A DNA stretch of 64,000 nt from Escherichia coli (GTDB taxonomy: Bacteria > Pseudomonadota > Gammaproteobacteria > Enterobacterales > Enterobacteriaceae). The notes under the pieces were generated by a model that made no database searches, had not been told where the DNA came from, and worked only from the letters and a program-made list of their open reading frames with translations. Positions 547 to 34,268 of the stretch are shown one piece after another (the first letter of the stretch is position 1; the number at the start of each line of letters is the position of its first letter). The translations under genes were made by a program, and so were the position numbers. The DNA is taken from assembly GCF_013315695.1 (NCBI RefSeq), contig NZ_CP054353.1; one strand, written 5' to 3'.

Positions 547-654
547 TTACTTCCGCTTGTTCAGCCAGTTCACGATCATGCTGGCAAGAATGCCAGCAAT
601 GACCGGAGCCGCTAAATCATGCCAGAAGGCCATGCCCAGCTCTGCGAGCGTCAT
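547..654 (-). CDS. ldr: Type I toxin Ldr (copy 2)
   Basis: Same 35-aa peptide as copy 1, 483 bp downstream. Confidence 0.85.
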   Translation of the reverse strand: MTLAELGMAFWHDLAAPVIAGILASMIVNWLNKRK

Positions 655-702
655 ATAGCCGCCTGTGTTGTAATGACAACGTTTCGCGGCTATTATTGAG
701 TT

Positions 703-771
703 GTTTGGGTTCAAGATTAGCCCCCGTGATGTTGTCAGGTGCATACCTGCAACGTGCGGGGGTTTTCTCTC
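703..771 (+). ncRNA. rdl: Putative Rdl antisense RNA (copy 2)
   Basis: Same promoter/hairpin/T-tract arrangement as copy 1 at +483 bp. Confidence 0.45.
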
Positions 772-1029
772 TCCAGCAACCAATGCCACCAGGGATAAAG
801 CCCCCGCAACATTGCGCCTCACCGGAACCCTTCCGGCTTGCCGCTGATTCTACGACTGTTTTTCTGTTCCGGAATCCATCACTTCTTCACTCTGTGCTGC
901 GCATTCAGCAGAATATTATCCGCTTGCAACCGTTGCATTTTTCTTACGAAAAAGGCCGCAGAGTTTTATCCCTGCGGCCTGGTCCGGGCGCAAATTGCCA
1001 TTACCGCAGCCTGACGCCCGTCTGACACG

Positions 1030-9508: not shown

Positions 9509-11200
9509 TTAGTTAGCCGCTGCCTCTTTTGCCTGCGGGATGTGGCACCAGTTGTTGTTTTCGTTAATTCCACCATCCGGTGAAGTATAGCCAAGACACC
9601 CCATGATGGTGTCGTACAGCTCTACATGACGGCGTGGCACTTTCATGTCGGCTTCTTTTTTCAGCTGCGCAAATGCCTGCGCATTGACCGGATTTTCCAG
9701 ATATTTATCCGACATCCAGACCATCATCGGCACACGGAACTGTTCCGGCGGTGCCAGTTCACGCGGCGTGCCGTGCAGGTGCTCGCGTTCATTAATTGAC
9801 TCACCGTGGTCAGCTGCATAGAACACAATCGCTTTCTTATTGCGAACCTGATCAATCACGCTGGAAATAAAGTGATCCACATAGGTCACCGAGTTGTCGT
9901 ATGAGTTGATCATCTGCGCTTTGGTACAGCCGCTATCAACACCAATACATTCCGGCTTCCACTGCGCAAAGCTGCGCGGGTAACGCTGGGTGTAGTTAAA
10001 GTGTGAGCCTTTGGTATGCAGAATGATCAGATGCTTACCATCCGGGTTGCGCCCCAGCGACTGCTGCATTTCGTCTACCAGCAACATATCATCTACCGGT
10101 TTGCCACGGTTACGTGGCTCCGCACCAATCTGCTCACGATAAGCAATGTTGTCCGCCATCGTATTGCTGTAGAACCACATTTCGCTTTGCATAGCGTAGA
10201 GATCAGAACTGAATCCTAACTGCTTCAATACCGCGAAAATGTTCTGTTCTTTTAATGTGCGCTGCGGATTATCTTCTGCTCCACCCTGACGTACAAACAT
10301 GCAACGCAGTGAGAGTTTGGTTGCAGTATCACAGGAGTAACCACGGAACGCCGCCAGATTTTTCTCCTGAGCCAGTTTCGGTGTGGTATTGCGTTCATAG
10401 CCGAAAATGCCCATATGATCCCAGCGCGTGGTTTCACCAATAATGAAAACGACATATGTATCATCAACGTTTTGTGGAGCCTGGTACGTAAACTTCTTCG
10501 CAGGGTTAAGGAGAGAATTGTTATCGGAAGATTCATCGACCCGCGCCCAGGCATAAAGACCTAATGCCGAAAGCCAGTTTGATGGCAGATAAGAGTTCGC
10601 GACGACGCCGCCATAACTCGGCAAATCAACACCTGTCGCCCTCTCCACTTTCTTCTGCTGGATATCCAGCAAACGAATCGGTGCCCAAACCATAATACCT
10701 GCCAGTACGACGACCGCCAGGCTGCGAATACGCTGCCCTGGGGTTCGCAGTTGTCGGAGCAAGGTGTAACGACAGCGGTTATTCCAGATAAGGATAAGAG
10801 GCAACGCGCTTACGGCGATTAACCAGAGAATAAAGTTCAGACCAACAACTTCTTTTGACAGGTCGATATCGGTGGTCATGACGGATGCGATGATGCCATA
10901 ACCAATGACTACATTAAGGAAGGTCATGTAATAGCTGGCACCGGCGGAAAAGAGCACCACCAGCGATGCCAGAATACGCCAGCTGCGGCGGCCAAACAGC
11001 GAAAGAAGACGCAGTAAAAAGAAGGTCACCAGTACGGTGGCGGCCAGTTCAACAACAGCAGAAATACCTTTCCAGACGGTAAAATCGTGCGCATAGCTGC
11101 CGAAGCGGCGGTAAAAAACCGCGCCATTCATAAAAAGGCCAATATAGATTGCAAGCAAAAAGCTCAGCTTCTGCTGTGTAATCGATTTGATGTATCTCAT
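9509..11200 (-). CDS. eptB: Kdo2-lipid A phosphoethanolamine transferase EptB
   Basis: ORF 9509..11233; Met at [10 protein letters not shown] gives 563 aa; N-terminal membrane segments plus sulfatase-type catalytic domain. Confidence 0.9.
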
Positions 11201-11523
11201 GCAAACAAACCCTGGACAAACAGGTGATAACACCCTGCTTAGCGGCTTTTCAGGCCCGGCAGGGGAAAAGTGCGGAGGTAGTCAGATAAGTAAAATCTAC
11301 ACGCGCGAATAAGTAGACCACAGCAAAGGGAAAAAGTGTGGGGAAAGAGTGTGCATGAAGCACAAATTTACAAAAATGCAAGTTTGAAAAGAGACTTTAG
11401 CGTTACAAAAAGCAGTAAAAAGGGCCAGTTAACTGGCCCAAATTTTACGCGTCATTGTTTATACATTGCGTTGAAGCGTTTGATTCACACTAAGGCTAAA
11501 GCCCAGTAGCTCGCGGCAGATGA

Positions 11524-12732
11524 TTAAAGGGAGCCATGCGCCTCACGCAACATTTTCTGCTCTGGCTGACGAATCGTCGTAGAGAGCGCCAGTGACAGAA
11601 TCAGCAGGGCGAAAATCACGTAGAAGGTCACATAGAAGCCGCCAAACAGTGAGGCGATAATCGACCCACAAATGCTGCCGATACCGAAACCGAGATAAAT
11701 CACACCGTAGTTTTTCGCCAGGTTATTGAGGCCGAAGAACTCACTGACCAGTGACGGGAACACCGTGATAGTGCCGCCAAAGTTAAATGCCACGCAGGCA
11801 ATCGCTGCAAAGAACGTCACTGCATTCAATGGTGCAAACAGCAGGGCCGCCATACCCACCAGCGATATCACCTGACCAATGGTGATAACACGGATACGGG
11901 CGATTTTGTCAGACAGAATGCCCAGCACCAGACGACCAGAAAGGTTGGCGATGGAAATAACCGTCACAGCATTGGCTGCGGAAATTGCATCAAGATGCGC
12001 CAGACTTTGAGCGATATCTTTCGCTACACCAATCACATACAGACCACTCATGCACGCAGTCAGGAACATAACCGCTAACATCCAGTACTGCGGTTTACGC
12101 ATCGACTCTGCCAGGGTGTAGTCCTTCTCCACCACACCATTGCTGGTTTTCACTTCCTGCTTCGGCGCATCTTTCATTAACGTTGCGCCAAAGACAATCA
12201 TCACCAGTACAATCGCGCCCCAAATAACAAAGGTTTTTTCCAGACCCACCGTTTCGAGCAGGTGCGTGTCGATAAATTTAAAACCCAGGCTGCCCAGACC
12301 ATAAGAACCGATAGCAAAAGCAGAGATAAGTCCCTTACGCTCCGGAAACCACTTCACGCAGTTAGAGAGCGTCAACAGGTAACCCGCACCATCCGCCAGA
12401 CCAACCAACACACCGGCGCTTAACCACAGCATCATCAGGTTGTTGGAATGTGCTGTCAGGAAGAAACCTAATCCCAGCAAAATGCCGGAAGCCATAGTGA
12501 CGCGTTTAACACCAAAACGTTCCTGCAATTTGCCCGCAACAGAAGATGAAATTGCCAGCCCCAGACTTAACAAGCCGAAAGAGAAAGCAACCTGGCTTAC
12601 AGGAGCCCCCAGCTTGGCAGAAAGCGCACCGTTAAACAGACTCCAGGTATAAACCGACCCCAGAGCAAACTGGGTAATGATAGTACCGATGAGTGTCAGC
12701 CAGCGAGTACGCTGATAATTTGAAGGTGTCAT
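11524..12732 (-). CDS. yhjX: MFS transporter YhjX (oxalate/formate antiporter family)
   Basis: ORF 11524..12777; Met at MTPSNYQRTRW gives 402 aa; 12-TM MFS topology. Confidence 0.9.
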   Translation of the reverse strand: MTPSNYQRTRWLTLIGTIITQFALGSVYTWSLFNGALSAKLGAPVSQVAFSFGLLSLGLAISSSVAGKLQERFGVKRVTMASGILLGLGFFLTAHSNNLMMLWLSAGVLVGLADGAGYLLTLSNCVKWFPERKGLISAFAIGSYGLGSLGFKFIDTHLLETVGLEKTFVIWGAIVLVMIVFGATLMKDAPKQEVKTSNGVVEKDYTLAESMRKPQYWMLAVMFLTACMSGLYVIGVAKDIAQSLAHLDAISAANAVTVISIANLSGRLVLGILSDKIARIRVITIGQVISLVGMAALLFAPLNAVTFFAAIACVAFNFGGTITVFPSLVSEFFGLNNLAKNYGVIYLGFGIGSICGSIIASLFGGFYVTFYVIFALLILSLALSTTIRQPEQKMLREAHGSL

Positions 12733-12815
12733 GGCAGTATTCCTGCAGTAATAAAAAGGAAAAATCTCTGCTGACAACCATAACGAAGTGCGCTTTATGC
12801 CTGGGGAAAAACGGC

Positions 12816-12846
12816 ATGAAATGCCATCAGAACGGAATGAAATGCA
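12816..12846 (-). promoter_or_regulatory. Probable YpdB (LytTR-type response regulator) binding site in the yhjX promoter
   Basis: Minus strand reads TGCATTTCAT-N11-GGCATTTCAT, a direct repeat matching the GGCATTTCAT-N11-GGCATTTCAT motif I recall for YpdB at yhjX. Confidence 0.6.
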
Positions 12847-12960
12847 TTAGTTCAGGAATGAATGACTCGACAATTATTCGCCAAATTTATTATTTAGTAA
12901 GTTAGTCCCCACTATCGCCACATTAGTTGTTATTTATGGGTTTCAATTGTATCTATAACG

Positions 12961-13659
12961 TTAAAATCTGGCACTAACCCCCATCGTATACAGATAGTCG
13001 CTATTGTTAGTGGTATTTTCTGCCTGAGATAGCGCCGCATAGGCAGCAATATTTTGATTGAGCAACATATCAGCGCCTACGGTGACATCCAGCCAGTTGC
13101 CGTTCTGGTTTGTCGCCGTCATCCGGCTCAGGCCTGATTGCGCCTTCCAGATATTCTCGCCAAATTGCTGGTTATAGCTGATTTGCGCCCAGGGTCGGAG
13201 ATCGCCAAGCCGGGAGTCAACACGCCAGCCTAAAGTACTCACGCTGGCATGCCATAACGGATCGGTCAGCGTGGTAGTACTGTCGCCAAACTCGTTATAC
13301 ATCGAGGTGGTTGTGCCATCGTAATGTAATGCCGCGACCGGACCGGTTGTAACCTGTTGATATAAAGGAAAATTCCACCCCATACTCATACTACTGGTGA
13401 CATCCACAGGGGTTTCTTCCGCCAGATTGACTTCCAGTCCCAGCGCCCTTTGGCTACTTTGAATACGTTGCGACAAAATATCGTTGTAATCAGGTTGATG
13501 ATCGCTATCCCAGGTGTAACGCTCTGTGGAATGTCCGGGTTGCGTATCAACGATATATTCTTGTTGCCAGGCGTAAGCTGTGTTGAGAAAAAAGGCACTG
13601 ATTACCACGCTCACCAGCAGGCTTAGCTGCCAGCGACCACCGCTTTTTTTTATGATCAT
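12961..13659 (-). CDS. yhjY: YhjY, predicted outer-membrane beta-barrel (autotransporter-like) protein
   Basis: Signal peptide and C-terminal aromatic residue typical of beta-barrel proteins; synteny. Start codon chosen at the MIIKK Met. Confidence 0.8.
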   Translation of the reverse strand: MIIKKSGGRWQLSLLVSVVISAFFLNTAYAWQQEYIVDTQPGHSTERYTWDSDHQPDYNDILSQRIQSSQRALGLEVNLAEETPVDVTSSMSMGWNFPLYQQVTTGPVAALHYDGTTTSMYNEFGDSTTTLTDPLWHASVSTLGWRVDSRLGDLRPWAQISYNQQFGENIWKAQSGLSRMTATNQNGNWLDVTVGADMLLNQNIAAYAALSQAENTTNNSDYLYTMGVSARF

Positions 13660-13816
13660 TAACACGACTCCAGGGAAGAGCCGAATTCGGCAATATTATT
13701 GTCATTGTATGAAGGATATCGGGCATAGTAGCCCTGTATTAAATATTGACTTTTTCACCGATGCGTCAAGAAAAGCGGCTGAAATTTTTACGATCGGGTA
13801 CATAGCGAGGGAAAGT

Positions 13817-14380
13817 ATGGAACGTTGCGGCTGGGTGAGTCAGGATCCGCTTTATATTGCCTACCATGATAATGAATGGGGCGTGCCTGAAACTGACAGT
13901 AAAAAACTGTTCGAAATGATCTGCCTTGAAGGGCAGCAGGCTGGATTATCGTGGATCACCGTCCTCAAAAAACGCGAAAACTATCGCGCCTGCTTTCATC
14001 AGTTCGATCCGGTGAAGGTGGCAGCAATGCAGGAAGAGGATGTCGAAAGACTGGTACAGGACGCCGGGATTATCCGCCATCGCGGGAAAATTCAGGCAAT
14101 TATTGGTAATGCGCGGGCGTACCTGCAAATGGAACAGAACGGCGAACCGTTTGCCGACTTTGTCTGGTCGTTTGTCAATCATCAACCACAGGTGACACAA
14201 GCCACAACGTTGAGCGAAATCCCTACATCTACGCCCGCCTCCGACGCTCTATCTAAAGCCCTGAAAAAGCGTGGTTTTAAGTTTGTTGGTACCACAATCT
14301 GTTACTCCTTTATGCAGGCATGTGGGCTGGTGAATGATCATGTGGTTGGCTGCTGTTGCTATCCGGGAAATAAACCATGA
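13817..14380 (+). CDS. tag: DNA-3-methyladenine glycosylase I (Tag)
   Basis: Internal Met of ORF 13580..14380 (MERCGWVSQDPLYIAYHDNEWG...) gives 187 aa with Tag-family motifs. Confidence 0.9.
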   Translation: MERCGWVSQDPLYIAYHDNEWGVPETDSKKLFEMICLEGQQAGLSWITVLKKRENYRACFHQFDPVKVAAMQEEDVERLVQDAGIIRHRGKIQAIIGNARAYLQMEQNGEPFADFVWSFVNHQPQVTQATTLSEIPTSTPASDALSKALKKRGFKFVGTTICYSFMQACGLVNDHVVGCCCYPGNKP

Positions 14381-14817
14381 TTCGGGAAGCGCAACGTTCA
14401 GAACTCCCCGCGATCCTCGAACTGTGGCTGGAAAGTACAACCTGGGGGCATCCCTTTATAAAAGCGAATTACTGGCGTGATTGCATTCCGCTGGTGCGGG
14501 ATGCGTATCTTGCCAACGCGCAAAACTGGGTCTGGGAAGAAGACGGTAAGCTTCTCGGTTTTGTCAGCATTATGGAAGGCCGATTCCTCGCAGCAATGTT
14601 TGTCGCACCGAAGGCCGTCAGACGCGGTATTGGTAAGGCGCTAATGCAGTATGTGCAGCAGCGCCATCCCCATCTGATGCTGGAGGTTTATCAAAAAAAT
14701 CAACCGGCGATAGATTTCTACCATGCGCAGGGTTTTCACATTGTCGACTGCGCATGGCAAGATGAAACCCAACTGCCCACCTGGATTATGAGCTGGCCGG
14801 TGGTTCAAACGCTGTAA
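14377..14817 (+). CDS. yiaC: GNAT-family N-acetyltransferase YiaC
   Basis: 146 aa; start overlaps the tag stop (ATGA). Confidence 0.9.
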
Positions 14818-17114
14818 GTGTCAGTTCCGGACCGTTGTATTTTTCCAGCCATGCCAGCGCCGTATTACCCGCACAGCCATTCCCCAGCCGCGAGCTGGGG
14901 AGATCTTTGGTCAGCACGTTCACTGCGCCGTTTTTACAAATGCCGTCAGCGGTTAAATCCAGATCTGGCCATGCGCCTTCGTGAATACAAATCACGCCAG
15001 GTTTAATTCCCTCGCTAATGACCGCGCCGGCAAGAATTTGCCCGCGTGAGTTCCACAGCCGAACAGTATCGCCATCTTGTATGCCGCGCGTCTGGGCATC
15101 GTCAGGATGAATGGTGACAGGCTCACGGTTTGCCACCGCGTACAATTCGCGCAGAGAACTGTAATTCAGCTGGCTGTGCAGACGATGTGCCGGATGAGCA
15201 GAAAGTACCTGCAACTGTTCCGGTTCGGCATTGCCCTGCCATTCGTCCGGCTCCAGCCACATTGGATGCCCCGGGCAATCCGGATAAGCGTAATCAGCAA
15301 TACGCTGCGAGAAGATTTCAATCTTGCCGCTGGCGGTTTTTAATGGATGCGCCTGCGGATCGCGGCGAAAATCGGCGAAGCGAATAAACCGCTCGCTGTC
15401 CGGGTTTTCCGGCATCTCAATTAACTGGTTGGCTTCCCATAACTCAGCAAATGGCGGCAATTCAACCTGCTGGCTTGCCCCGCGCTGCCGGGCAACGTTA
15501 TAAAACGTTTCCAGCCATTGCAGCTCACTTTTTCCTTCCGTAAACCGCGCATAGCCGCCCTTCTCCCAACGTTCACTCAACTCGGCAAAGACATCAAAAT
15601 CATTACGCGCTTCATAACGTGGAGGCACCACTTGCTTCATCGGCACCAGATGCTGATTACTGTAATCGCCGGTCATGGTGAGATCATTACGCTCAAACGA
15701 AGTGGTCGCAGGCAGAACGATATCCGCGTGTTTCGCCGCAGCCGTCCAGAAGCATTCAGAGATCACCACCAGCTCCGGTTTTTGCCAGGCACGGATCAGG
15801 CGATTGGTATCCTGATGATGAGTAAAGTTGGCACCGCCCGCCCACCAGATAAAACGAATATCCGGGAAATGTCGGTCCATACCGTTATGTTGATATGCGC
15901 CACCAGGGTTTTCCAGTGCTTCAACAATGCGGGCGACAGGGATTTTATCTACCGCATCGGTGCCACCCGGCAAGCTGCCCTGCATGGAAGAGAGCACCGC
16001 AGCGCGTGGGGTTACCACCATTGGCAAAATGGTAAGAAAGACCAAAACCGCCGCCGGGTGTGCCGATTTGCCCCAACATTGCCGCCAGCGTGACGATCAT
16101 CCAGTGCTTTTGCTCGCCAAACTGTTGACGTTGCATTCCCCAGCCAGCCATCAGCATGGTGGTATTTTGATGGAAAAGAGCCGCCAGTTCGCGGATTTTC
16201 GCTGCGCCAACACCACAAATCTCTGCCGCCCATTCGGCGTTTTTCGCTATACCGTCACTCTCGCCCAGCAAATAAGAGGCGAAGACGGCATAACCTGTGG
16301 TGCAACGCGCCAGAAACGCTTCGTCGTGCCAACCATTTTCCACCAGCGTATGGGCGATCCCCAGCATCAACGCAACATCGGTGCCCATGTGCGGAGCCAC
16401 CCATTCCATTTTATCGCCAAAGAAATCGACGGTTTCCGATCGCATTGGATCAATGCAGATCAGCTTTTTCCCGCTGTCACGCAGTGCGGAAAAGTAAGAA
16501 AGCCCCTGCTCATCGGATGCATTCCACGCAATTTTCAGCGTATTGAGTGGGTTAGCACTCCACAGCACCACGACATCGCTATGTTCCAGCACCAGCGGCC
16601 AACTGGTTTGCTGTTGATAAACTTCGCTGCCCCCCACGACATACGGCATGATCGCCTGTGCCGCGCCGGTCGAATAATCCCCCAGATGCCCAGTATAACC
16701 GCCTGCCAGCGCCATATAGCGTTGTAATAATGTCGAGGCCTTATGCAGCACGCCGTTTGAACGCCAGCCGTAGGAACCCGCAAAAATCGATGCCGGACCA
16801 TAAGCCTCACGAATGCGTTTATGTTGATGGTGAATAAGCTCCAGCACCTCATCCCAACTCACGCGAACAAATTCATCCTGCCCACGAATGCCTTGCGGAT
16901 TTTCCGGTGACGCAAGAAAGCCTTTGCGCACCATTGGAAATCGCACCCGCGTATTGCTGTGAACCTGGTCGCGAACCGCGCTCTGCAAGGAGTTTTCCAT
17001 TCCTGTGGCTAACGCGCCACGCGAGCTAAACACGGTTTCGCCGTCGGTTTCAACCAGCATAGGCCCCCAGTGGGCGGCAGTCAGAACGGAATATCGTGAG
17101 GATGAGTTGGCCAA
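14786..17114 (-). pseudogene. bisC: Biotin sulfoxide reductase BisC, reading frame disrupted near 16001-16008
   Basis: Two overlapping ORFs (15945..17114 N-terminal part, 14786..16045 C-terminal part) together cover a molybdopterin oxidoreductase; total span 2329 nt is not a multiple of 3. Confidence 0.7.
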
Positions 17115-17266
17115 ACCGAAGACTCCTGAAAGGTTAGATGTATTGAGCAGTTAAATATTACTTACAAATTTCCGAGTATTCCCAGGAATAATCTTCATGT
17201 TCACGCGGCATAATCTCCCGCCACGGAACCCGTGGCAAAGAATAAAAAGGTTATTAAGGATTAACA

Positions 17267-17926
17267 ATGAAGAAACGTGTTTATCTTATTGCCGCCGTAG
17301 TGAGTGGCGCTCTGGCGGTATCTGGCTGTACAACTAACCCTTACACCGGCGAACGCGAAGCAGGTAAATCTGCTATCGGCGCAGGTCTGGGCTCTCTCGT
17401 TGGCGCGGGTATTGGTGCGCTCTCTTCTTCGAAGAAAGATCGCGGTAAAGGCGCGCTCATTGGCGCAGCAGCAGGCGCAGCTCTGGGCGGCGGCGTTGGT
17501 TATTACATGGATGTGCAGGAAGCGAAGCTGCGTGACAAAATGCGCGGCACTGGTGTTAGCGTAACCCGCAGCGGGGATAACATTATCCTCAATATGCCGA
17601 ACAATGTGACCTTCGACAGCAGCAGCGCAACCCTGAAACCGGCGGGCGCTAACACCCTGACCGGCGTGGCAATGGTACTGAAAGAGTATCCGAAAACGGC
17701 GGTTAACGTGATTGGTTATACCGACAGCACGGGGGGGCACGACCTGAACATGCGTCTCTCCCAGCAGCGTGCGGATTCCGTTGCCAGCGCGTTGATCACC
17801 CAGGGCGTGGACGCCAGCCGCATCCGTACTCAAGGCCTTGGCCCGGCTAACCCAATCGCCAGCAACAGCACCGCAGAAGGTAAGGCGCAAAACCGCCGTG
17901 TAGAAATTACCTTAAGCCCACTGTAA
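17267..17926 (+). CDS. yiaD: OmpA-family lipoprotein YiaD
   Basis: 219 aa, lipobox LAVSGC, glycine-zipper region and OmpA C-terminal domain. Confidence 0.95.
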   Translation: MKKRVYLIAAVVSGALAVSGCTTNPYTGEREAGKSAIGAGLGSLVGAGIGALSSSKKDRGKGALIGAAAGAALGGGVGYYMDVQEAKLRDKMRGTGVSVTRSGDNIILNMPNNVTFDSSSATLKPAGANTLTGVAMVLKEYPKTAVNVIGYTDSTGGHDLNMRLSQQRADSVASALITQGVDASRIRTQGLGPANPIASNSTAEGKAQNRRVEITLSPL

Positions 17927-18029
17927 TCCCTTTCATGTCAGGTGATACAGAAATCACCTGGCATTCTTCAGTTTTCCTTCATCATATTTCAGGCTAAGGT
18001 GATCGCCTTATCAGTGAATGGAGAGAAGC

Positions 18030-19004
18030 ATGAAGCCGTCCGTTATCCTCTACAAAGCCTTACCTGATGATTTACTGCAACGCCTGCAAGAACATTTCAC
18101 CGTTCACCAGGTGGCAAACCTCAGCCCACAAACCGTCGAACAAAATGCAGCAATTTTTGCCGAAGCTGAAGGCTTGCTGGGTTCAAATGAGAATGTTGAT
18201 GCCGCATTGCTGGAAAAAATGCCGAAACTGCGTGCCACATCAACGATCTCCGTCGGCTATGACAATTTTGATGTCGATGCGCTTACCGCCCGAAAAATTC
18301 TGCTGATGCACACACCAACCGTATTAACAGAAACCGTCGCCGATACGCTGATGGCGCTGGTGTTGTCTACCGCTCGTCGGGTTGTGGAGGTAGCAGAACG
18401 GGTAAAAGCAGGCGAATGGACCGCGAGCATAGGCCCGGACTGGTACGGCACTGACGTTCACCATAAAACACTGGGCATTGTCGGGATGGGACGGATCGGC
18501 ATGGCGCTGGCACAACGTGCGCACTTTGGCTTCAACATGCCCATCCTCTATAACGCACGTCGCCACCATAAAGAAGCAGAAGAACGCTTCAACGCCCGCT
18601 ACTGCGATTTGGATACACTGTTACAAGAGTCAGATTTCGTTTGCCTGATCCTGCCGTTAACTGATGAAACGCATCATCTGTTTGGCGCAGAACAATTCGC
18701 CAAAATGAAATCCTCCGCTATTTTCATTAATGCCGGACGTGGCCCGGTGGTTGATGAAAATGCACTGATTGCTGCATTGCAGAAAGGGGAAATTCACGCC
18801 GCCGGGCTGGATGTCTTCGAACAAGAGCCACTGTCTGTAGATTCGCCGTTGCTCTCAATGGCCAACGTCGTCGCAGTACCGCATATTGGATCTGCCACCC
18901 ATGAGACGCGTTATGGCATGGCCGCCTGTGCCGTGGATAATTTGATTGATGCGTTACAAGGAAAGGTTGAGAAGAACTGTGTGAATCCGCACGTCGCGGA
19001 CTAA
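18030..19004 (+). CDS. ghrB: Glyoxylate/hydroxypyruvate reductase B (2-ketoaldonate reductase)
   Basis: D-isomer 2-hydroxyacid dehydrogenase with GxGxxG NAD motif; 324 aa from MKPSVILYK. Confidence 0.9.
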
Positions 19005-19022
19005 GCCGCGACTGCGTGGAGT

Positions 19023-19050
19023 AAAGCCCGATAATCGCTCGGGCTTTTAC
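19023..19050. terminator. Bidirectional terminator between convergent ghrB and yiaF
   Basis: Hairpin aaagcccg-N9-cgggcttt flanked by T-rich (plus) and A-rich (minus) tracts. Confidence 0.6.
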
Positions 19051-19053
19051 TCT

Positions 19054-19764
19054 TTATTGGGTTGCAGTAACTGCTGTAGTCCAGGCCTGATTAAACGCCT
19101 GATGCTGTGCCGGTAATGGCGCAATCAGTTTGTTATATTCACTTGCCTGCTGTGACGTCGGGAACTGGATGCCATTTGCGACAAAGCTCACCTGAGTACC
19201 TTGCTGAGCAATGTAGTCTCCAACCATCACCAGTTGTTGCGTGAAAGTTTGTGCCGCCGGAATCAACGGTTGCAATGCATCAGCTGGCGTCGTTACCACT
19301 TTGGTGAATGCCTGATCGAAAACCGGTTTCAGGTCATCGCTCTGTTTTAGCGCAGAGTGTGCAGCATCGGCCTGCAACTTCGCATTTTGCAGCTGTTGCG
19401 CCAGCACACCCAGAGAACCGTTCATTTCACGCAGTGGGCCGCTTTGCGTAACGTAATCCTGCGGTACGCGAATTGCGTTAACGCTGTCTACAACCGGGCG
19501 CAGACCGGAATCCATCGCCTGATTCACCTGCTGAGAATAACCATACAGAATCGCGTAATCAGAGACAAAAGGACCAAACTGTTTTTTCTGATCGGCAGTC
19601 AGGGTTGGTAGACGTTCACCGCTACGCATCACTGTATTCTGCAGGAAGTCGATAAACGCTTTACGCTGATCGCCTTCTTTATCAAAACACCCACTCAGGC
19701 TAACTACCATTAATAACGCCGCAAGAGGCGCAAACCAGCGAGAGCAGGACTTTCCTGTCGCCAT
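19054..19764 (-). CDS. yiaF: Lipoprotein YiaF (DUF3053)
   Basis: 236 aa from MATGKSCSRW; lipobox LSGC. Confidence 0.9.
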   Translation of the reverse strand: MATGKSCSRWFAPLAALLMVVSLSGCFDKEGDQRKAFIDFLQNTVMRSGERLPTLTADQKKQFGPFVSDYAILYGYSQQVNQAMDSGLRPVVDSVNAIRVPQDYVTQSGPLREMNGSLGVLAQQLQNAKLQADAAHSALKQSDDLKPVFDQAFTKVVTTPADALQPLIPAAQTFTQQLVMVGDYIAQQGTQVSFVANGIQFPTSQQASEYNKLIAPLPAQHQAFNQAWTTAVTATQ

Positions 19765-20197
19765 TTTCTTACTCCTTTCACCCAAAAAAAGCGCACAACG
19801 ACACACGCGTGTCTGACGTGACAAGGATAGTCCAGGACAGGCTTGCAGGATACCCTTTCTACGTAATCTTCCTGGTAAAATCATGGAGAAAATGAAACAA
19901 GGTTAATTTGTTGTTTCATTGTTAAAAAATGATAGTGCCGTTGCTTTTTTTGTAGCCAGAGATTTACGCCTTCTCAGAACGTTAGATTTTCGAAATCTTT
20001 ACAAACCGGGAGTGGTAAGAGATATATCGGCATTTATCAGATCGTTAGGTGGCTATAAGTCACGCTAAATGACTGGCTGAATCGAATCATAGCCAGAGCA
20101 TGCCCTGACTACACCCCGCTGTGTCTGTTTTTCCCGACTATTCTTAATGAGCTTCGATGCAATTCACGATCCCGCAGTGTGATTTGAGGAGTTTTCA

Positions 20198-20488
20198 ATG
20201 GAATATAAAGATCCAATGCATGAGCTGTTGAGCAGCCTGGAACAGATTGTTTTTAAAGATGAAACGCAGAAAATTACCCTGACGCACAGAACAACGTCCT
20301 GTACCGAAATTGAGCAGTTACGAAAAGAGACAGGGTTAAAAATCGATGATTTCGCCCGGGTTTTGGGCGTATCAGTCGCCATGGTAAAGGAATGGGAATC
20401 CAGACGCGTGAAGCCTTCAAGTGCCGAACTAAAATTGATGCGTTTGATTCAAGCCAACCCGGCATTAAGTAAGCAGTTGATGGAATAG
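20198..20488 (+). CDS. yiaG: HTH-type (XRE-like) transcriptional regulator YiaG
   Basis: 96 aa with helix-turn-helix region; synteny. Confidence 0.9.
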   Translation: MEYKDPMHELLSSLEQIVFKDETQKITLTHRTTSCTEIEQLRKETGLKIDDFARVLGVSVAMVKEWESRRVKPSSAELKLMRLIQANPALSKQLME

Positions 20489-20572
20489 ACTTTTATCCAC
20501 TTTATTGCTGTTTACGGTCCTGATGACAGGACCGTTTTCCAACCGATTAATCATAAATATGAAAAATAATTG

Positions 20573-20768
20573 TTGCATCACCCGCCAATGCGTGGCTTAA
20601 TGCACATCAACGGTTTGACGTACAGACCATTAAAGCAGTGTAGTAAGGCAAGTCCCTTCAAGAGTTATCGTTGATACCCCTCGTAGTGCACATTCCTTTA
20701 ACGCTTCAAAATCTGTAAAGCACGCCATATCGCCGAAAGGCACACTTAATTATTAAAGGTAATACACT
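20573..20768 (+). promoter_or_regulatory. cspA promoter (-35 TTGCAT 20573-20578, -10 CTTAAT 20596-20601) and 159-nt 5' UTR with cold-box region
   Basis: Hexamers with 17-bp spacing; predicted TSS near 20610 gives a 159-nt leader, matching the known long cspA leader; AT-rich UP-like element upstream. Confidence 0.75.
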
Positions 20769-20981
20769 ATGTCCGGTAAAATGACTGGTATCGTAAAATG
20801 GTTCAACGCTGACAAAGGCTTCGGCTTCATCACTCCTGACGATGGCTCTAAAGACGTGTTCGTACACTTCTCTGCTATCCAGAACGATGGTTACAAATCT
20901 CTGGACGAAGGTCAGAAAGTGTCCTTCACCATCGAAAGCGGCGCTAAAGGCCCGGCAGCTGGTAACGTAACCAGCCTGTAA
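20769..20981 (+). CDS. cspA: Major cold-shock protein CspA
   Basis: 70 aa, [21 protein letters not shown]..., with RNP1/RNP2 motifs. Confidence 0.98.
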
Positions 20982-21009
20982 TCTCTGCTTAAAAGCACAG
21001 AATCTAAGA

Positions 21010-21038
21010 TCCCTGCCAAATGGCGGGGATTTTTTTAT
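21010..21038 (+). terminator. cspA rho-independent terminator
   Basis: Hairpin ccctgcc-aaat-ggcgggg followed by a T7 run. Confidence 0.85.
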
Positions 21039-21169
21039 TTGTTTATTCAGGAAATAAATAATCGTTCGCGTAATAAAATCTATTATTATTTTTGTGAAGA
21101 ATAAATTTGGGTGCAATGAGAATGCGCAACGCCGTAAGAAAGGCGGGAATAACTTCCCGCCGAAGACGC

Positions 21170-21322
21170 TTACTCTTTCAATTTGCAGGCTAAAAACGCC
21201 GCCAGCTCATAACTCCCCTGTTTAATATGCAATTCACACAGTGAATCTCTTATCATCCAGGTGAAAAATAAAAGCGTGAAACAAATCACTATTAAAGAAA
21301 GTAATCTATATTTCTGCGGCAT
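21170..21322 (-). CDS. hokA: Hok-family type I toxin HokA (50 aa)
   Basis: MPQKYRLLSLIVICFTLLFFTWMIRDSLCELHIKQGSYELAAFLACKLKE, a Hok/Gef family membrane peptide. Confidence 0.85.
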   Translation of the reverse strand: MPQKYRLLSLIVICFTLLFFTWMIRDSLCELHIKQGSYELAAFLACKLKE

Positions 21323-21382
21323 TCCCAGCCTCCTGTGTTGATTTCCAACGAGTAAGAGGCTAACCTTATGGTGTTCAGGCAT
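21170..21382 (-). CDS. mokA: Mok-like in-frame N-terminally extended reading frame overlapping hokA
   Basis: 70-codon ORF in frame with hokA, as in mok/hok pairs; its upstream region is interrupted by IS150 within about 16 bp. Confidence 0.45.
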   Translation of the reverse strand: MPEHHKVSLLLVGNQHRRLGMPQKYRLLSLIVICFTLLFFTWMIRDSLCELHIKQGSYELAAFLACKLKE

Positions 21383-21423
21383 AGGGTAGCCTCACTTTGT
21401 ACTGACCCCAGAAAGTTGGACAG

Positions 21424-22275
21424 TTAAACACGAGGCATATAGGTCTGATTCCGATATTCAATTGGAGTCAGACCTTTTAATTTCAGGCTAATTCTTCTGC
21501 TGTTGTAGTATTCAATATATTCCGTAACAGCATCCTTCAGCTCGCTTATATTACTGAACTCATCAAGATAAAAACACTCCGACTTTAAGGTTCCAAAGAA
21601 ACACTCCACCACAGCATTATCCAGACAATTGCCTTTTCTGGACATGCTTTGTTTAATACCATGTTCTTTAAGGATATTTTGATATCTTCTCATACGATAC
21701 TGCCATCCCTGGTCAGAGTGCAGAACAGGATGCTCGTGAGGATTAAGCTTTTTGAATGCCTGATCGAGCATATTCTCGACCATGTTCATCACTGGTCTTT
21801 CCGAAAGGCTGTAAGAAATAACTTCGTTGTTGAAGAGATCTATTACTGGAGACAAATACAGCTTGCGCCCATTGACTGCAAATTCAGTAACATCGGTAAC
21901 CCACTTCTCGTTTGGCCGCGTAGCCTTGAAATCTCTTTGGAGAACATTGGGGGCGGTTTGCCCTACCTCTCCTCTGTAAGAGCGGTATCGCTTGACCTTA
22001 ATCGCTGCCTTCAGTGAGAGGATTCCCATCAGGCGCTGAACAGCTTTATGGTTAATCTGTTTCCCTTCTCGATGAAGAGACAGCGTTACCCTACGGTATC
22101 CGTATCGGCCTCTATTCTCATGATAAATCTCACCAATACGCTTTTTAACGTCCGCATACTTGTCAGGCTTGCTGAGAGCCTTTAGATGGTAATAAAACGT
22201 ACTGCGCGGTATCTCCGCAGCCCTGAGAAGCTCATCAAGAGGATAAAACTGCCTTAGCTCGTTGAGTACTTTCAC
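21424..22275 (-). CDS. insK: IS150 OrfB (InsK), DDE transposase catalytic domain
   Basis: 283 aa rve-type integrase core; expected to be expressed as an OrfAB fusion by -1 frameshifting. Confidence 0.95.
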
Positions 22276-33088: not shown

Positions 33089-34268
33089 ATGTTTACTAAA
33101 CGTCACCGCATCACATTACTGTTCAATGCCAATAAAGCCTATGACCGGCAGGTAGTAGAAGGCGTAGGGGGAATATTTACAGGCGTCACAATCGGAATGG
33201 GATATTTTCATTGAAGAAGATTTCCGCGCCCGCATTGATAAAATCAAGGACTGGTTAGGAGATGGCGTCATTGCCGACTTCGACAACAAACAAATCGAGC
33301 AAGCGCTAGCTGATGTCGACGTCCCCATTGTTGGGGTTGGTGGCTCGTATCACCTTGCCGAAAGTTACCCACCCGTTCATTACATTGCCACCGATAACTA
33401 TGCGCTGGTTGAAAGCGCGTTTTTGCATTTAAAAGAGAAAGGCGTTAACCGCTTTGCTTTTTATGGTCTTCCGGAATCAAGCGGTAAACGTTGGGCCACT
33501 GAACGCGAATATGCATTTCGTCAGCTTGTCGCCGAAGAAAAGTATCGCGGAGTGGTTTATCAGGGATTAGAAACCGCGCCAGAGAACTGGCAACACGCGC
33601 AAAATCGGCTGGCAGACTGGCTACAAACGCTGCCACCGCAAACCGGGATTATTGCCGTTACTGACGCCCGGGCGCGGCATATTCTGCAAGTATGTGAACA
33701 TCTACACATTCCCGTACCGGAAAAATTATGCGTGATTGGCATCGATAACGAAGAACTGACCCGCTATCTGTCGCGTGTCGCCCTTTCTTCGGTCGCTCAG
33801 GGCGCGCGGCAAATGGGCTATCAGGCGGCAAAACTGTTGCATCGATTATTAGATAAAGAAGAAATGCCGCTACAGCGGATTTTGGTCCCACCAGTTCGCG
33901 TCATTGAACGGCGCTCAACAGATTACCGCTCGCTGACCGATCCCGCCGTTATTCAGGCCATGCATTACATTCGTAATCACGCCTGTAAAGGGATTAAAGT
34001 GGATCAGGTACTGGATGCGGTGGGCATATCACGCTCCAATCTTGAGAAGCGTTTTAAAGAAGAGGTGGGTGAAACCATCCATGCCATGATTCATGCCGAG
34101 AAGCTGGAGAAAGCGCGCAGTCTGCTGATTTCAACCACCTTGTCGATCAATGAGATATCGCAAATGTGCGGTTATCCATCGCTGCAATATTTCTACTCTG
34201 TTTTTAAAAAAGCATATGACACGACGCCAAAAGAGTATCGCGATGTAAATAGCGAGGTCATGTTGTAG
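33089..34268 (+). pseudogene. xylR: xylR (AraC-family xylose operon activator) with +1 frameshift in a G-run at 33167-33171
   Basis: ATG at 33089 reads MFTKRHRITLLFNANKAYDRQVVEGVG then a stop after 42 codons; the rest of XylR (ORF 33423..34268 plus upstream codons) is in the +1 frame. Confidence 0.75.

What the first reader, a model, noticed from the sequence alone, without database searches (positions are those of the whole stretch)
33160..33175. xylR frameshift lies in a homopolymeric G-run
The sequence reads GTAGGGGGAATATTT with five G. One G fewer would give a continuous frame ..VEGVGEYLQ.. running into the rest of XylR. A homopolymer is both a natural slippage hotspot and a classic sequencing-error site, so whether the regulator is truly inactive matters for interpreting the locus.
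Basis: seen in the sequence. Interest (0 to 1): 0.3.

Follow-up and report, generated by a model that had tools for sequence, protein, structure and literature searches.

The report
Extra G breaks orphaned xylR gene
One extra G truncates the xylose regulator gene xylR in this E. coli, but insertion sequences had already deleted or broken the genes it controls, so this is ordinary gene decay or a sequencing slip of no consequence for xylose use.

Summary
Window 33167-33171 is GGGGG inside xylR. Removing one G gives a 392-aa XylR identical to that of the nearest complete genome, E. coli MSB1_4I.

All 5,408 complete E. coli genomes that match this 61-mer lack the extra G. Every xylR locus read directly has four G.

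An IS1-anchored deletion at 28487|28488 removed the yiaB 5' end, xylB, xylA, the shared xylA/xylF promoter region, xylF and the xylG 5' end. The rest of xylG is split by IS1 and ISEc45. XylR therefore has no local targets, and its state barely changes how the locus reads.

Real mutation versus assembly error cannot be settled without reads; I put it near 50:50.
- For real: this is the only indel in 64 kb against a near-identical genome, and all runs of six or more bases agree.
- For error: the only two point changes not corroborated by other data (+G, and A>G at 33419) lie 249 bp apart in xylR. Neither was found in any other dataset.

It is not a hotspot or a phase switch. Ordinary; low interest.

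The parts
33167..33171 (+). Run of five G (four in all other E. coli examined); the frameshifting extra base
   Evidence: 0 of 5,408 complete genomes match exactly
33089..33214 (+). Truncated xylR reading frame: 27 native residues, 14 out-of-frame residues, then TGA (41 aa)
33089..34268 (+). xylR pseudogene (1,180 nt). With one G removed it encodes a 392-aa XylR identical to that of MSB1_4I
33423..34268 (+). Residual 281-aa ORF in the native XylR frame, opening at TTG. It lacks residues 1-111, which include the PBP1_XylR N-terminal domain
   Evidence: the same ORF is on record in 422 blocks of the assembly collection, behind many different upstream lesions
33419..33419 (+). Second uncorroborated change, A>G, synonymous (Ala110 GCA>GCG), 249 bp from the G run
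28487..28488 (.). Deletion junction: the yiaB remnant is fused directly to the IS1 terminal inverted repeat. 4,721 bp are missing relative to MSB1_4I and 4,875 bp relative to the intact locus of MS 21-1. Lost: yiaB 5' end, xylB, xylA, xylA/xylF promoter region, xylF, xylG 5' end
   Evidence: the same junction is in independent contigs L018, L020, L021, L060 and L062
28180..28487 (-). yiaB remnant (3' part only)
28488..29255 (-). IS1 (768 bp) inserted in xylG; its end at 28488 anchors the deletion
29256..29822 (+). Middle fragment of xylG (about nt 390-957 of the intact gene)
29823..31264 (-). ISEc45 (IS110 family) inserted in xylG; transposase at 30074-31207
31265..31852 (+). 3' fragment of xylG
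31830..33011 (+). xylH, intact ORF (393 aa), but separated from the deleted xylF promoter
33028..33059 (+). Terminator-like hairpin (14-pair stem plus T run) between xylH and xylR
   Evidence: a consensus match only

Best explanation
A single G was added to a four-G run at codons 27-28 of xylR by replication slippage. The product is a 41-residue peptide lacking the ligand-binding and DNA-binding domains, so XylR is null. The change persists because the gene had already lost its purpose. In this subclade xylG was first hit by ISEc45 and IS1. In this sublineage an IS1-promoted adjacent deletion then removed xylB, xylA, the divergent xylA/xylF promoter region with its XylR sites, xylF and the start of xylG. 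The frameshift is therefore a late, selectively neutral step in the decay of an orphaned activator. It has no effect on xylose catabolism, which was already lost.

Shown: the sequence change, the truncation, the deletion and insertion-sequence architecture, and the order 'IS insertions, then deletion'. Inferred: that the extra G is a true mutation rather than an assembly error, that it came after the deletion, and that it is neutral.
For: The extra G is the only indel across the 64-kb window against MSB1_4I. All runs of six or more bases (75) agree. Assemblies that really suffer homopolymer error show 2-5 further indels in xylR alone.

The rest of the window is reproduced exactly by independent data. 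AF3 is perfect over 39001-64000. Logan and ENA contigs are perfect over 10198-28514 and 14814-28517. The ldr segment is perfect in three genomes.

The affected gene is the one gene in the window made redundant by the deletion. XylR activates xylAB and xylFGHR from their shared promoter region (PMC8534289), and that region is gone.

The deletion is real: the identical junction is in five independent contigs.

The same +G occurs as the only difference in a clean, unrelated phylogroup-A contig. xylR is also disrupted in other assemblies by nonsense codons, IS insertions and other frameshifts.
Against: The 5G allele was found in no other dataset of this lineage. All other xylR loci fetched have four G. 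The 41-aa product is on record for only 7 contigs, none from the samples that share the deletion junction.

The only two point changes in 64 kb that nothing else corroborates (+G and 33419 A>G) both lie in xylR, 249 bp apart. Independent neutral mutations do not predict this; a local low-quality patch would.

A four-base run is a weak slippage site (PMC8510543). Reads were not available.
Confidence: 0.5

Rival explanations
1. The extra G is an assembly or base-calling error, probably together with the A>G at 33419. The strain would then carry an intact xylR that is still functionally orphaned.
For: Both uncorroborated point changes in the window lie 249 bp apart in one gene, as a local low-coverage or low-quality patch would give. 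The 5G allele is absent from 5,408 complete genomes and from every other locus of the same subclade. The 41-aa product is not on record from samples that share the deletion and the yiaG marker. The same +G is produced as an obvious error in six noisy assemblies. The window runs through IS1, ISEc45, IS150 and ldr repeats, which suggests long-read or finished data, where residual homopolymer errors occur.
Against: The window otherwise shows no error in about 60 kb checked against independent assemblies. None of the 75 runs of six or more bases differs, although those are where homopolymer errors concentrate. An error falling by chance in the one gene made dispensable by the deletion has a chance of about 1.8%.
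Confidence: 0.43
2. The frameshift is real and was selected. Once xylAB was deleted, xylose could no longer be used but could still load XylR. Xylose-bound XylR weakly represses araBAD and drives useless expression, so losing XylR would be advantageous. This is a sub-case of the best explanation, so its probability is contained in that figure.
For: [quoted passage not shown] Independent xylR knock-outs of many kinds exist in other assemblies. The lesion sits in a strain whose xylAB is deleted.
Against: Other carriers of the same deletion show no sign of the frameshift. Most xylR-disrupted assemblies seen here keep xylAB. No phenotype data exist. The repression reported is weak.
Confidence: 0.08
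3. The G run is a reversible switch (phase variation), or is read through by a +1 ribosomal slip on GGG-G that would give wild-type XylR.
For: A P-site tRNA-Gly could re-pair perfectly one base downstream on GGGGG, and the product would be exactly wild type (inference from the sequence).
Against: The run is only five bases. No exact match to the 5G 61-mer exists among 5,408 genomes, and the frameshift is not conserved in any homologue. No in-frame stop or properly spaced stimulatory element was found. XylR is a low-copy protein, reported at up to 57 molecules per cell when induced (PMC8534289), so a slip of about 1% would yield almost none. Its targets are deleted and cannot revert.
Confidence: 0.02

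Closest known systems
E. coli XylR (AraC-type activator with a LacI/GalR-type ligand domain; PDB 4FE4 and 4FE7)
   Same: It sits downstream of xylH.
   Different: As written in the window it stops after 41 codons. Its operon partners and promoter targets are deleted.
Secondary decay of sugar-utilisation loci by insertion sequences, deletions and frameshifts, as in Shigella and other host-restricted E. coli lineages (my own knowledge)
   Same: IS insertions came first, then an IS-anchored deletion, then a point lesion in the leftover regulator.
   Different: This is a commensal/extra-intestinal phylogroup-F-like E. coli clade (nearest relatives IAI39 and SMS-3-5). The point lesion is seen in only one assembly.
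IS1-promoted adjacent deletions (classical intramolecular transposition; my own knowledge)
   Same: One endpoint is exactly the IS1 terminal repeat. Relatives carry nested deletions from the same IS1 end, reaching MS 21-1 coordinates 8546, 7890 and 3825.
   Different: Nothing unusual.
Homopolymer over-calls in error-rich assemblies (GCA_019430985 and its series, GCA_009741655)
   Same: The identical +G at the identical site, giving the same 41-aa product.
   Different: Those assemblies carry 2-5 further indels within xylR alone. The window has none in 64 kb.

Membership tests
XylR, xylose-responsive AraC-family activator | Full-length similarity to the solved E. coli XylR and its three-domain architecture | tested here: met
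XylR, xylose-responsive AraC-family activator | Uninterrupted reading frame | tested here: not met
   Frameshift at codon 28, stop at 33212-33214. It is a pseudogene as written.
XylR, xylose-responsive AraC-family activator | Presence of its target promoters (the xylA/xylF divergent region) | tested here: not met
   The region lies inside the 4,721-bp deletion
Phase-variable homopolymer (contingency) locus | Long tract, usually seven or more bases, with length polymorphism among strains | tested here: not met
   Five G. No exact match to the 5G 61-mer among 5,408 complete genomes, and four G in all loci read directly
Programmed +1 ribosomal frameshift (prfB type) | Frameshift conserved in homologues, with a slippery codon before an in-frame stop and a properly spaced Shine-Dalgarno-like stimulator | tested here: not met
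   No homologue is frameshifted here. The first in-frame stop is 14 codons downstream.
IS1-mediated adjacent deletion | Deletion endpoint exactly at the IS1 terminal inverted repeat, with nested variants from the same end in relatives | tested here: met
   Junction ...CGACAACAA|GGTAATGACTCC.... Nested endpoints in L063, L066 and the window.
Homopolymer sequencing error | Accompanied by other homopolymer indels, mostly in the longest runs | tested here: not met
   One indel in 64 kb; all 75 runs of six or more bases agree with MSB1_4I
Homopolymer sequencing error | Not reproduced in independent data from the same lineage | tested here: inconclusive
   The 41-aa product is not on record from samples sharing the deletion and the yiaG marker, but their xylR contigs could not be retrieved
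Homopolymer sequencing error | Read-level support for four G | not testable with these tools
   No reads are available

The most novel reading that the evidence does not exclude
The extra G is real and adaptive. After IS1 deleted xylAB, xylose became a gratuitous ligand. Xylose-bound XylR still dampens araBAD, so knocking out the orphaned activator improved growth on mixed pentoses in the gut. That would be an example of selection, not just drift, removing a regulator after its regulon is lost.
Probability: 0.08. Interest if true: 0.35.

Novelty: already known. Interest (0 to 1): 0.1.

Why it matters
It matters little. Annotators should mark xylR here as a pseudogene or possible sequencing error. 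The strain should be predicted xylose-negative because of the IS1-anchored deletion of xylAB and xylF, not because of xylR.

The useful lesson is methodological. A lone frameshift should be read against its neighbourhood and against near-identical genomes. Here the neighbourhood shows the regulator was already orphaned. The comparison also shows that the only two uncorroborated changes in 64 kb sit side by side, a flag for read-level checking.

Tried and rejected
- **Finding the source assembly or a sister with 5G.** The exact product look-up of the 41-aa peptide gave 7 contigs: six noisy and one unrelated. The cluster look-up gave 6 members. The JGI metagenome scan gave one hit, a noisy contig already seen. 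The GTDB representative scan gave none.
- **Retrieving xylR contigs from samples that share the deletion** (ERZ27238783, ERZ27238820, ERZ918033, ERZ28637816, ERR8574652). I used look-ups of the 281-aa ORF, XylR D66N, and the XylG C-terminal and middle fragments. Each protein is in 166-2,062 blocks and only 24 are read, so those samples' xylR contigs were not reached.
- **My first guess of Shigella.** Rejected: the window is 99.99% identical to E. coli MSB1_4I.
- **Recombination between two IS1 copies as the cause of the deletion.** AF3 has a second IS1 near yiaB, but it is at another site and in inverted orientation. Rejected.
- **The twelve apparent SNPs at 695-930.** These are an ldr repeat-register effect, not point changes.
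- **An effect of 33419 A>G on a local hairpin next to the TTG start.** The fold energies are -9.9 versus -10.3 kcal/mol, and neither differs from shuffled sequence. Rejected.
- **An sigma-70-type promoter just upstream of xylR.** The consensus scan found none.

Full report
**1. Observation**

The window reads ...GTAGAAGGCGTAGGGGGAATATTTACAGGC... with a run of five G at 33167-33171.
- An ORF opens at ATG 33089 and encodes MFTKRHRITLLFNANKAYDRQVVEGVG.
- It then runs out of frame for 14 codons to TGA at 33212-33214, giving 41 aa.
- The native frame resumes as an ORF only at TTG 33423 (281 aa).
- Deleting one G gives a 392-aa protein.
- That protein matches solved E. coli XylR (PDB 4FE4/4FE7) at E=3.7e-266 over its whole length.
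- It has Pfam PBP1_XylR 7-104, Peripla_BP_3 113-277 and AraC-type HTH 309-384.

Five-G runs are common in the window (15 G5 and 24 C5), so the run itself is not remarkable. The departure from the conserved four-G allele is.

**2. How rare the allele is**
- A 61-mer across the run matches 5,408 complete E. coli genomes, none exactly. The listed best hits differ only by the one-base gap.
- The 41-aa product is on record for only seven contigs among about 15 billion proteins.
- Six of those contigs are assemblies riddled with insertion errors: 2-5 further indels within xylR alone, nearly all one-base homopolymer insertions.
- The seventh, Logan SRR24416294, is a clean phylogroup-A contig. It matches UMNK88-like genomes at 11,253 of 11,254 positions and has an otherwise intact xyl locus.
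- The 28-mer with five G occurs once in 241 million JGI metagenome records, in one of the same noisy contigs.
- It does not occur in the GTDB representative genomes.

It is not a hotspot. Indel rates rise exponentially with run length (PMC8510543), and this is a 4-mer among 75 runs of six or more bases in the window.

**3.

The window is an E. coli of a small clade near IAI39 and SMS-3-5. Its nearest complete genome is MSB1_4I (NZ_LR898874.1).

Across all 64 kb the two genomes differ by:
- one indel, the extra G;
- three isolated SNPs;
- a cluster of twelve apparent SNPs at 695-930;
- a 4,721-bp deletion in the window.

The deletion joins yiaB at 28487 directly to the terminal inverted repeat of IS1 at 28488 (...CGACAACAA|GGTAATGACTCC...). 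It removes:
- the yiaB 5' end;
- xylB and xylA;
- the divergent xylA/xylF promoter region;
- xylF;
- the xylG 5' fragment.

What remains of xylG is split by IS1 (28488-29255) and ISEc45 (29823-31264). xylH is intact but has lost the xylF promoter.

XylR activates xylAB and xylFGHR from their shared promoter region (PMC8534289). That region is gone. Xylose catabolism is therefore lost regardless of xylR, and XylR is an orphaned activator.

**4. Order of events**
- MS 21-1, AF10, AF14 and AR_0077 have an intact xylFGHR.
- ISEc45 alone occurs in xylG in some assemblies (L050, L051).
- MSB1_4I, AF3 and many drafts carry ISEc45 plus IS1.

The same IS1 end anchors nested deletions of different extent. 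In MS 21-1 coordinates the left flank stops at:
- 8546 in MSB1_4I and L063 (154 bp of xylG lost);
- 7890 in L066 (xylF 3' end lost);
- 3825 in the window.

This is the classical signature of IS1-promoted adjacent deletion (my own knowledge).

The window's exact junction is reproduced in independent gut-metagenome and Logan contigs:
- L018 and L020 at 100% identity, and L021;
- L060 and L062, identical to the window over 18.3 and 13.7 kb.

These contigs also carry the yiaG G44E change at 20328. The deletion sublineage is therefore real and circulating.

**5. Real mutation or error?**

For a real mutation:
- The window is otherwise error-free where it can be checked. AF3 is a perfect match over 39001-64000. 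L060 and L062 are perfect over their lengths. The ldr segment is perfect in three genomes, which shows the 695-930 cluster is a repeat-register effect.
- No run of six or more bases differs from MSB1_4I. Error-prone assemblies look quite different.
- The gene hit is the one gene that the deletion made dispensable.

For an error:
- After all cross-checks, only two point changes in 64 kb remain uncorroborated by any other dataset. They are the extra G and an A>G at 33419 (Ala110 GCA>GCG, synonymous).
- Both lie in xylR, 249 bp apart.
- All other xylR loci examined have four G and A.
- The 41-aa product is not on record from any sample sharing the deletion.

Two independent neutral mutations, or two independent random errors, landing together in 1.8% of the window is unlikely. 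A local low-quality patch would explain it most simply.

I could not retrieve the xylR contigs of the sister samples. I therefore rate real against error at roughly 50:43. The rest goes to minor readings.

**6. Mechanism and consequences**

If real, the mechanism is replication slippage adding one G. The result is a null allele of 27 native residues, tolerated because the regulon is gone.
- The residual 281-aa ORF lacks the N-terminal domain, and I saw no evident ribosome-binding site. The 33419 change does not alter local RNA folding.
- Phase variation and programmed frameshifting fail their defining tests: the tract is short, there is no polymorphism, and there is no conservation.
- One reading not excluded is that loss of XylR is advantageous. 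Xylose-bound XylR weakly represses araBAD (PMC5766520), and xylose cannot be used in this strain. There is no supporting evidence here.
- xylR is also disrupted in other assemblies by nonsense codons, IS insertions, a 5' deletion and other frameshifts. Loss of xylR is therefore recurrent and unremarkable.

**7. Verdict**

The feature is an ordinary late step in IS-driven decay of the xyl locus, or a local assembly error with no biological consequence. Interest is low.

Noticed in passing
window 28487-28488 (with IS1 at 28488-29255): An IS1-anchored deletion of 4.7-4.9 kb removes the yiaB 5' end, xylB, xylA, the xyl promoters, xylF and the xylG 5' end. The identical junction is present in independent gut-metagenome and Logan contigs (L018, L020, L021, L060, L062).
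   Followed up: yes
L063, L066 and window 28488: Nested deletions of three different extents share the same IS1 end in related strains. The left flank stops at MS 21-1 coordinates 8546, 7890 and 3825.
   Followed up: partly
window 33419: A>G synonymous change in xylR (Ala110), found in no other locus or complete genome. Together with the extra G it is the only uncorroborated point change in 64 kb, and the two lie 249 bp apart.
   Followed up: partly
window 29823-31264: ISEc45 (IS110 family) is inserted in xylG with a 3-bp overlap at its ends. The same insertion occurs without IS1 in other assemblies (L050, L051). The xylG C-terminal 173-aa ORF it leaves is on record in 2,062 blocks, although some of those come from other frameshifted xylG genes in noisy assemblies.
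   Followed up: partly
window 20328 (yiaG 20198-20488): yiaG G44E (GGG>GAG) is absent from complete genomes of this clade but shared with the Logan and ENA contigs that carry the deletion. It marks the sublineage. The same protein variant also occurs in unrelated lineages.
   Followed up: partly
window 14786-17114, minus strand, near 16002: bisC carries a 5-bp deletion in a GCGCG repeat that splits it into two ORFs. The deletion is shared with MSB1_4I (annotated as frameshifted) and with L060-L062. bisC is intact in L053-L059. This is a lineage-wide pseudogene corroborated by independent data, in contrast to xylR.
   Followed up: partly
window 21400-22840: IS150 lies between hokA and glyS. The same site holds IS150 in the opposite orientation in L053, L057 and L058, and is empty in L054-L056.
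   Followed up: no
window 640-990: In the ldr toxin tandem repeats, twelve apparent SNPs against MSB1_4I are a repeat-register shift. The segment is 100% identical elsewhere in MSB1_4I, AF3 and MS 21-1.
   Followed up: yes
L012 722-1489 (AF3), equivalent to window ~28207-28219: Isolate AF3 has an additional IS1 between yiaA and yiaB, inverted relative to the xylG copy. It is independent of the window's deletion.
   Followed up: partly
window 33028-33059: A 14-pair hairpin followed by a T run lies between xylH and xylR and looks like a terminator. The consensus scan found no promoter in 32800-33500.
   Followed up: no
L061 around 2232-2237, equivalent to window 11993-12428: The metagenome contig from ERZ27238783 lacks 436 bp of the window here, and the MFS-transporter gene at that position is called as two split ORFs. 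Otherwise the contig is identical to the window.
   Followed up: no
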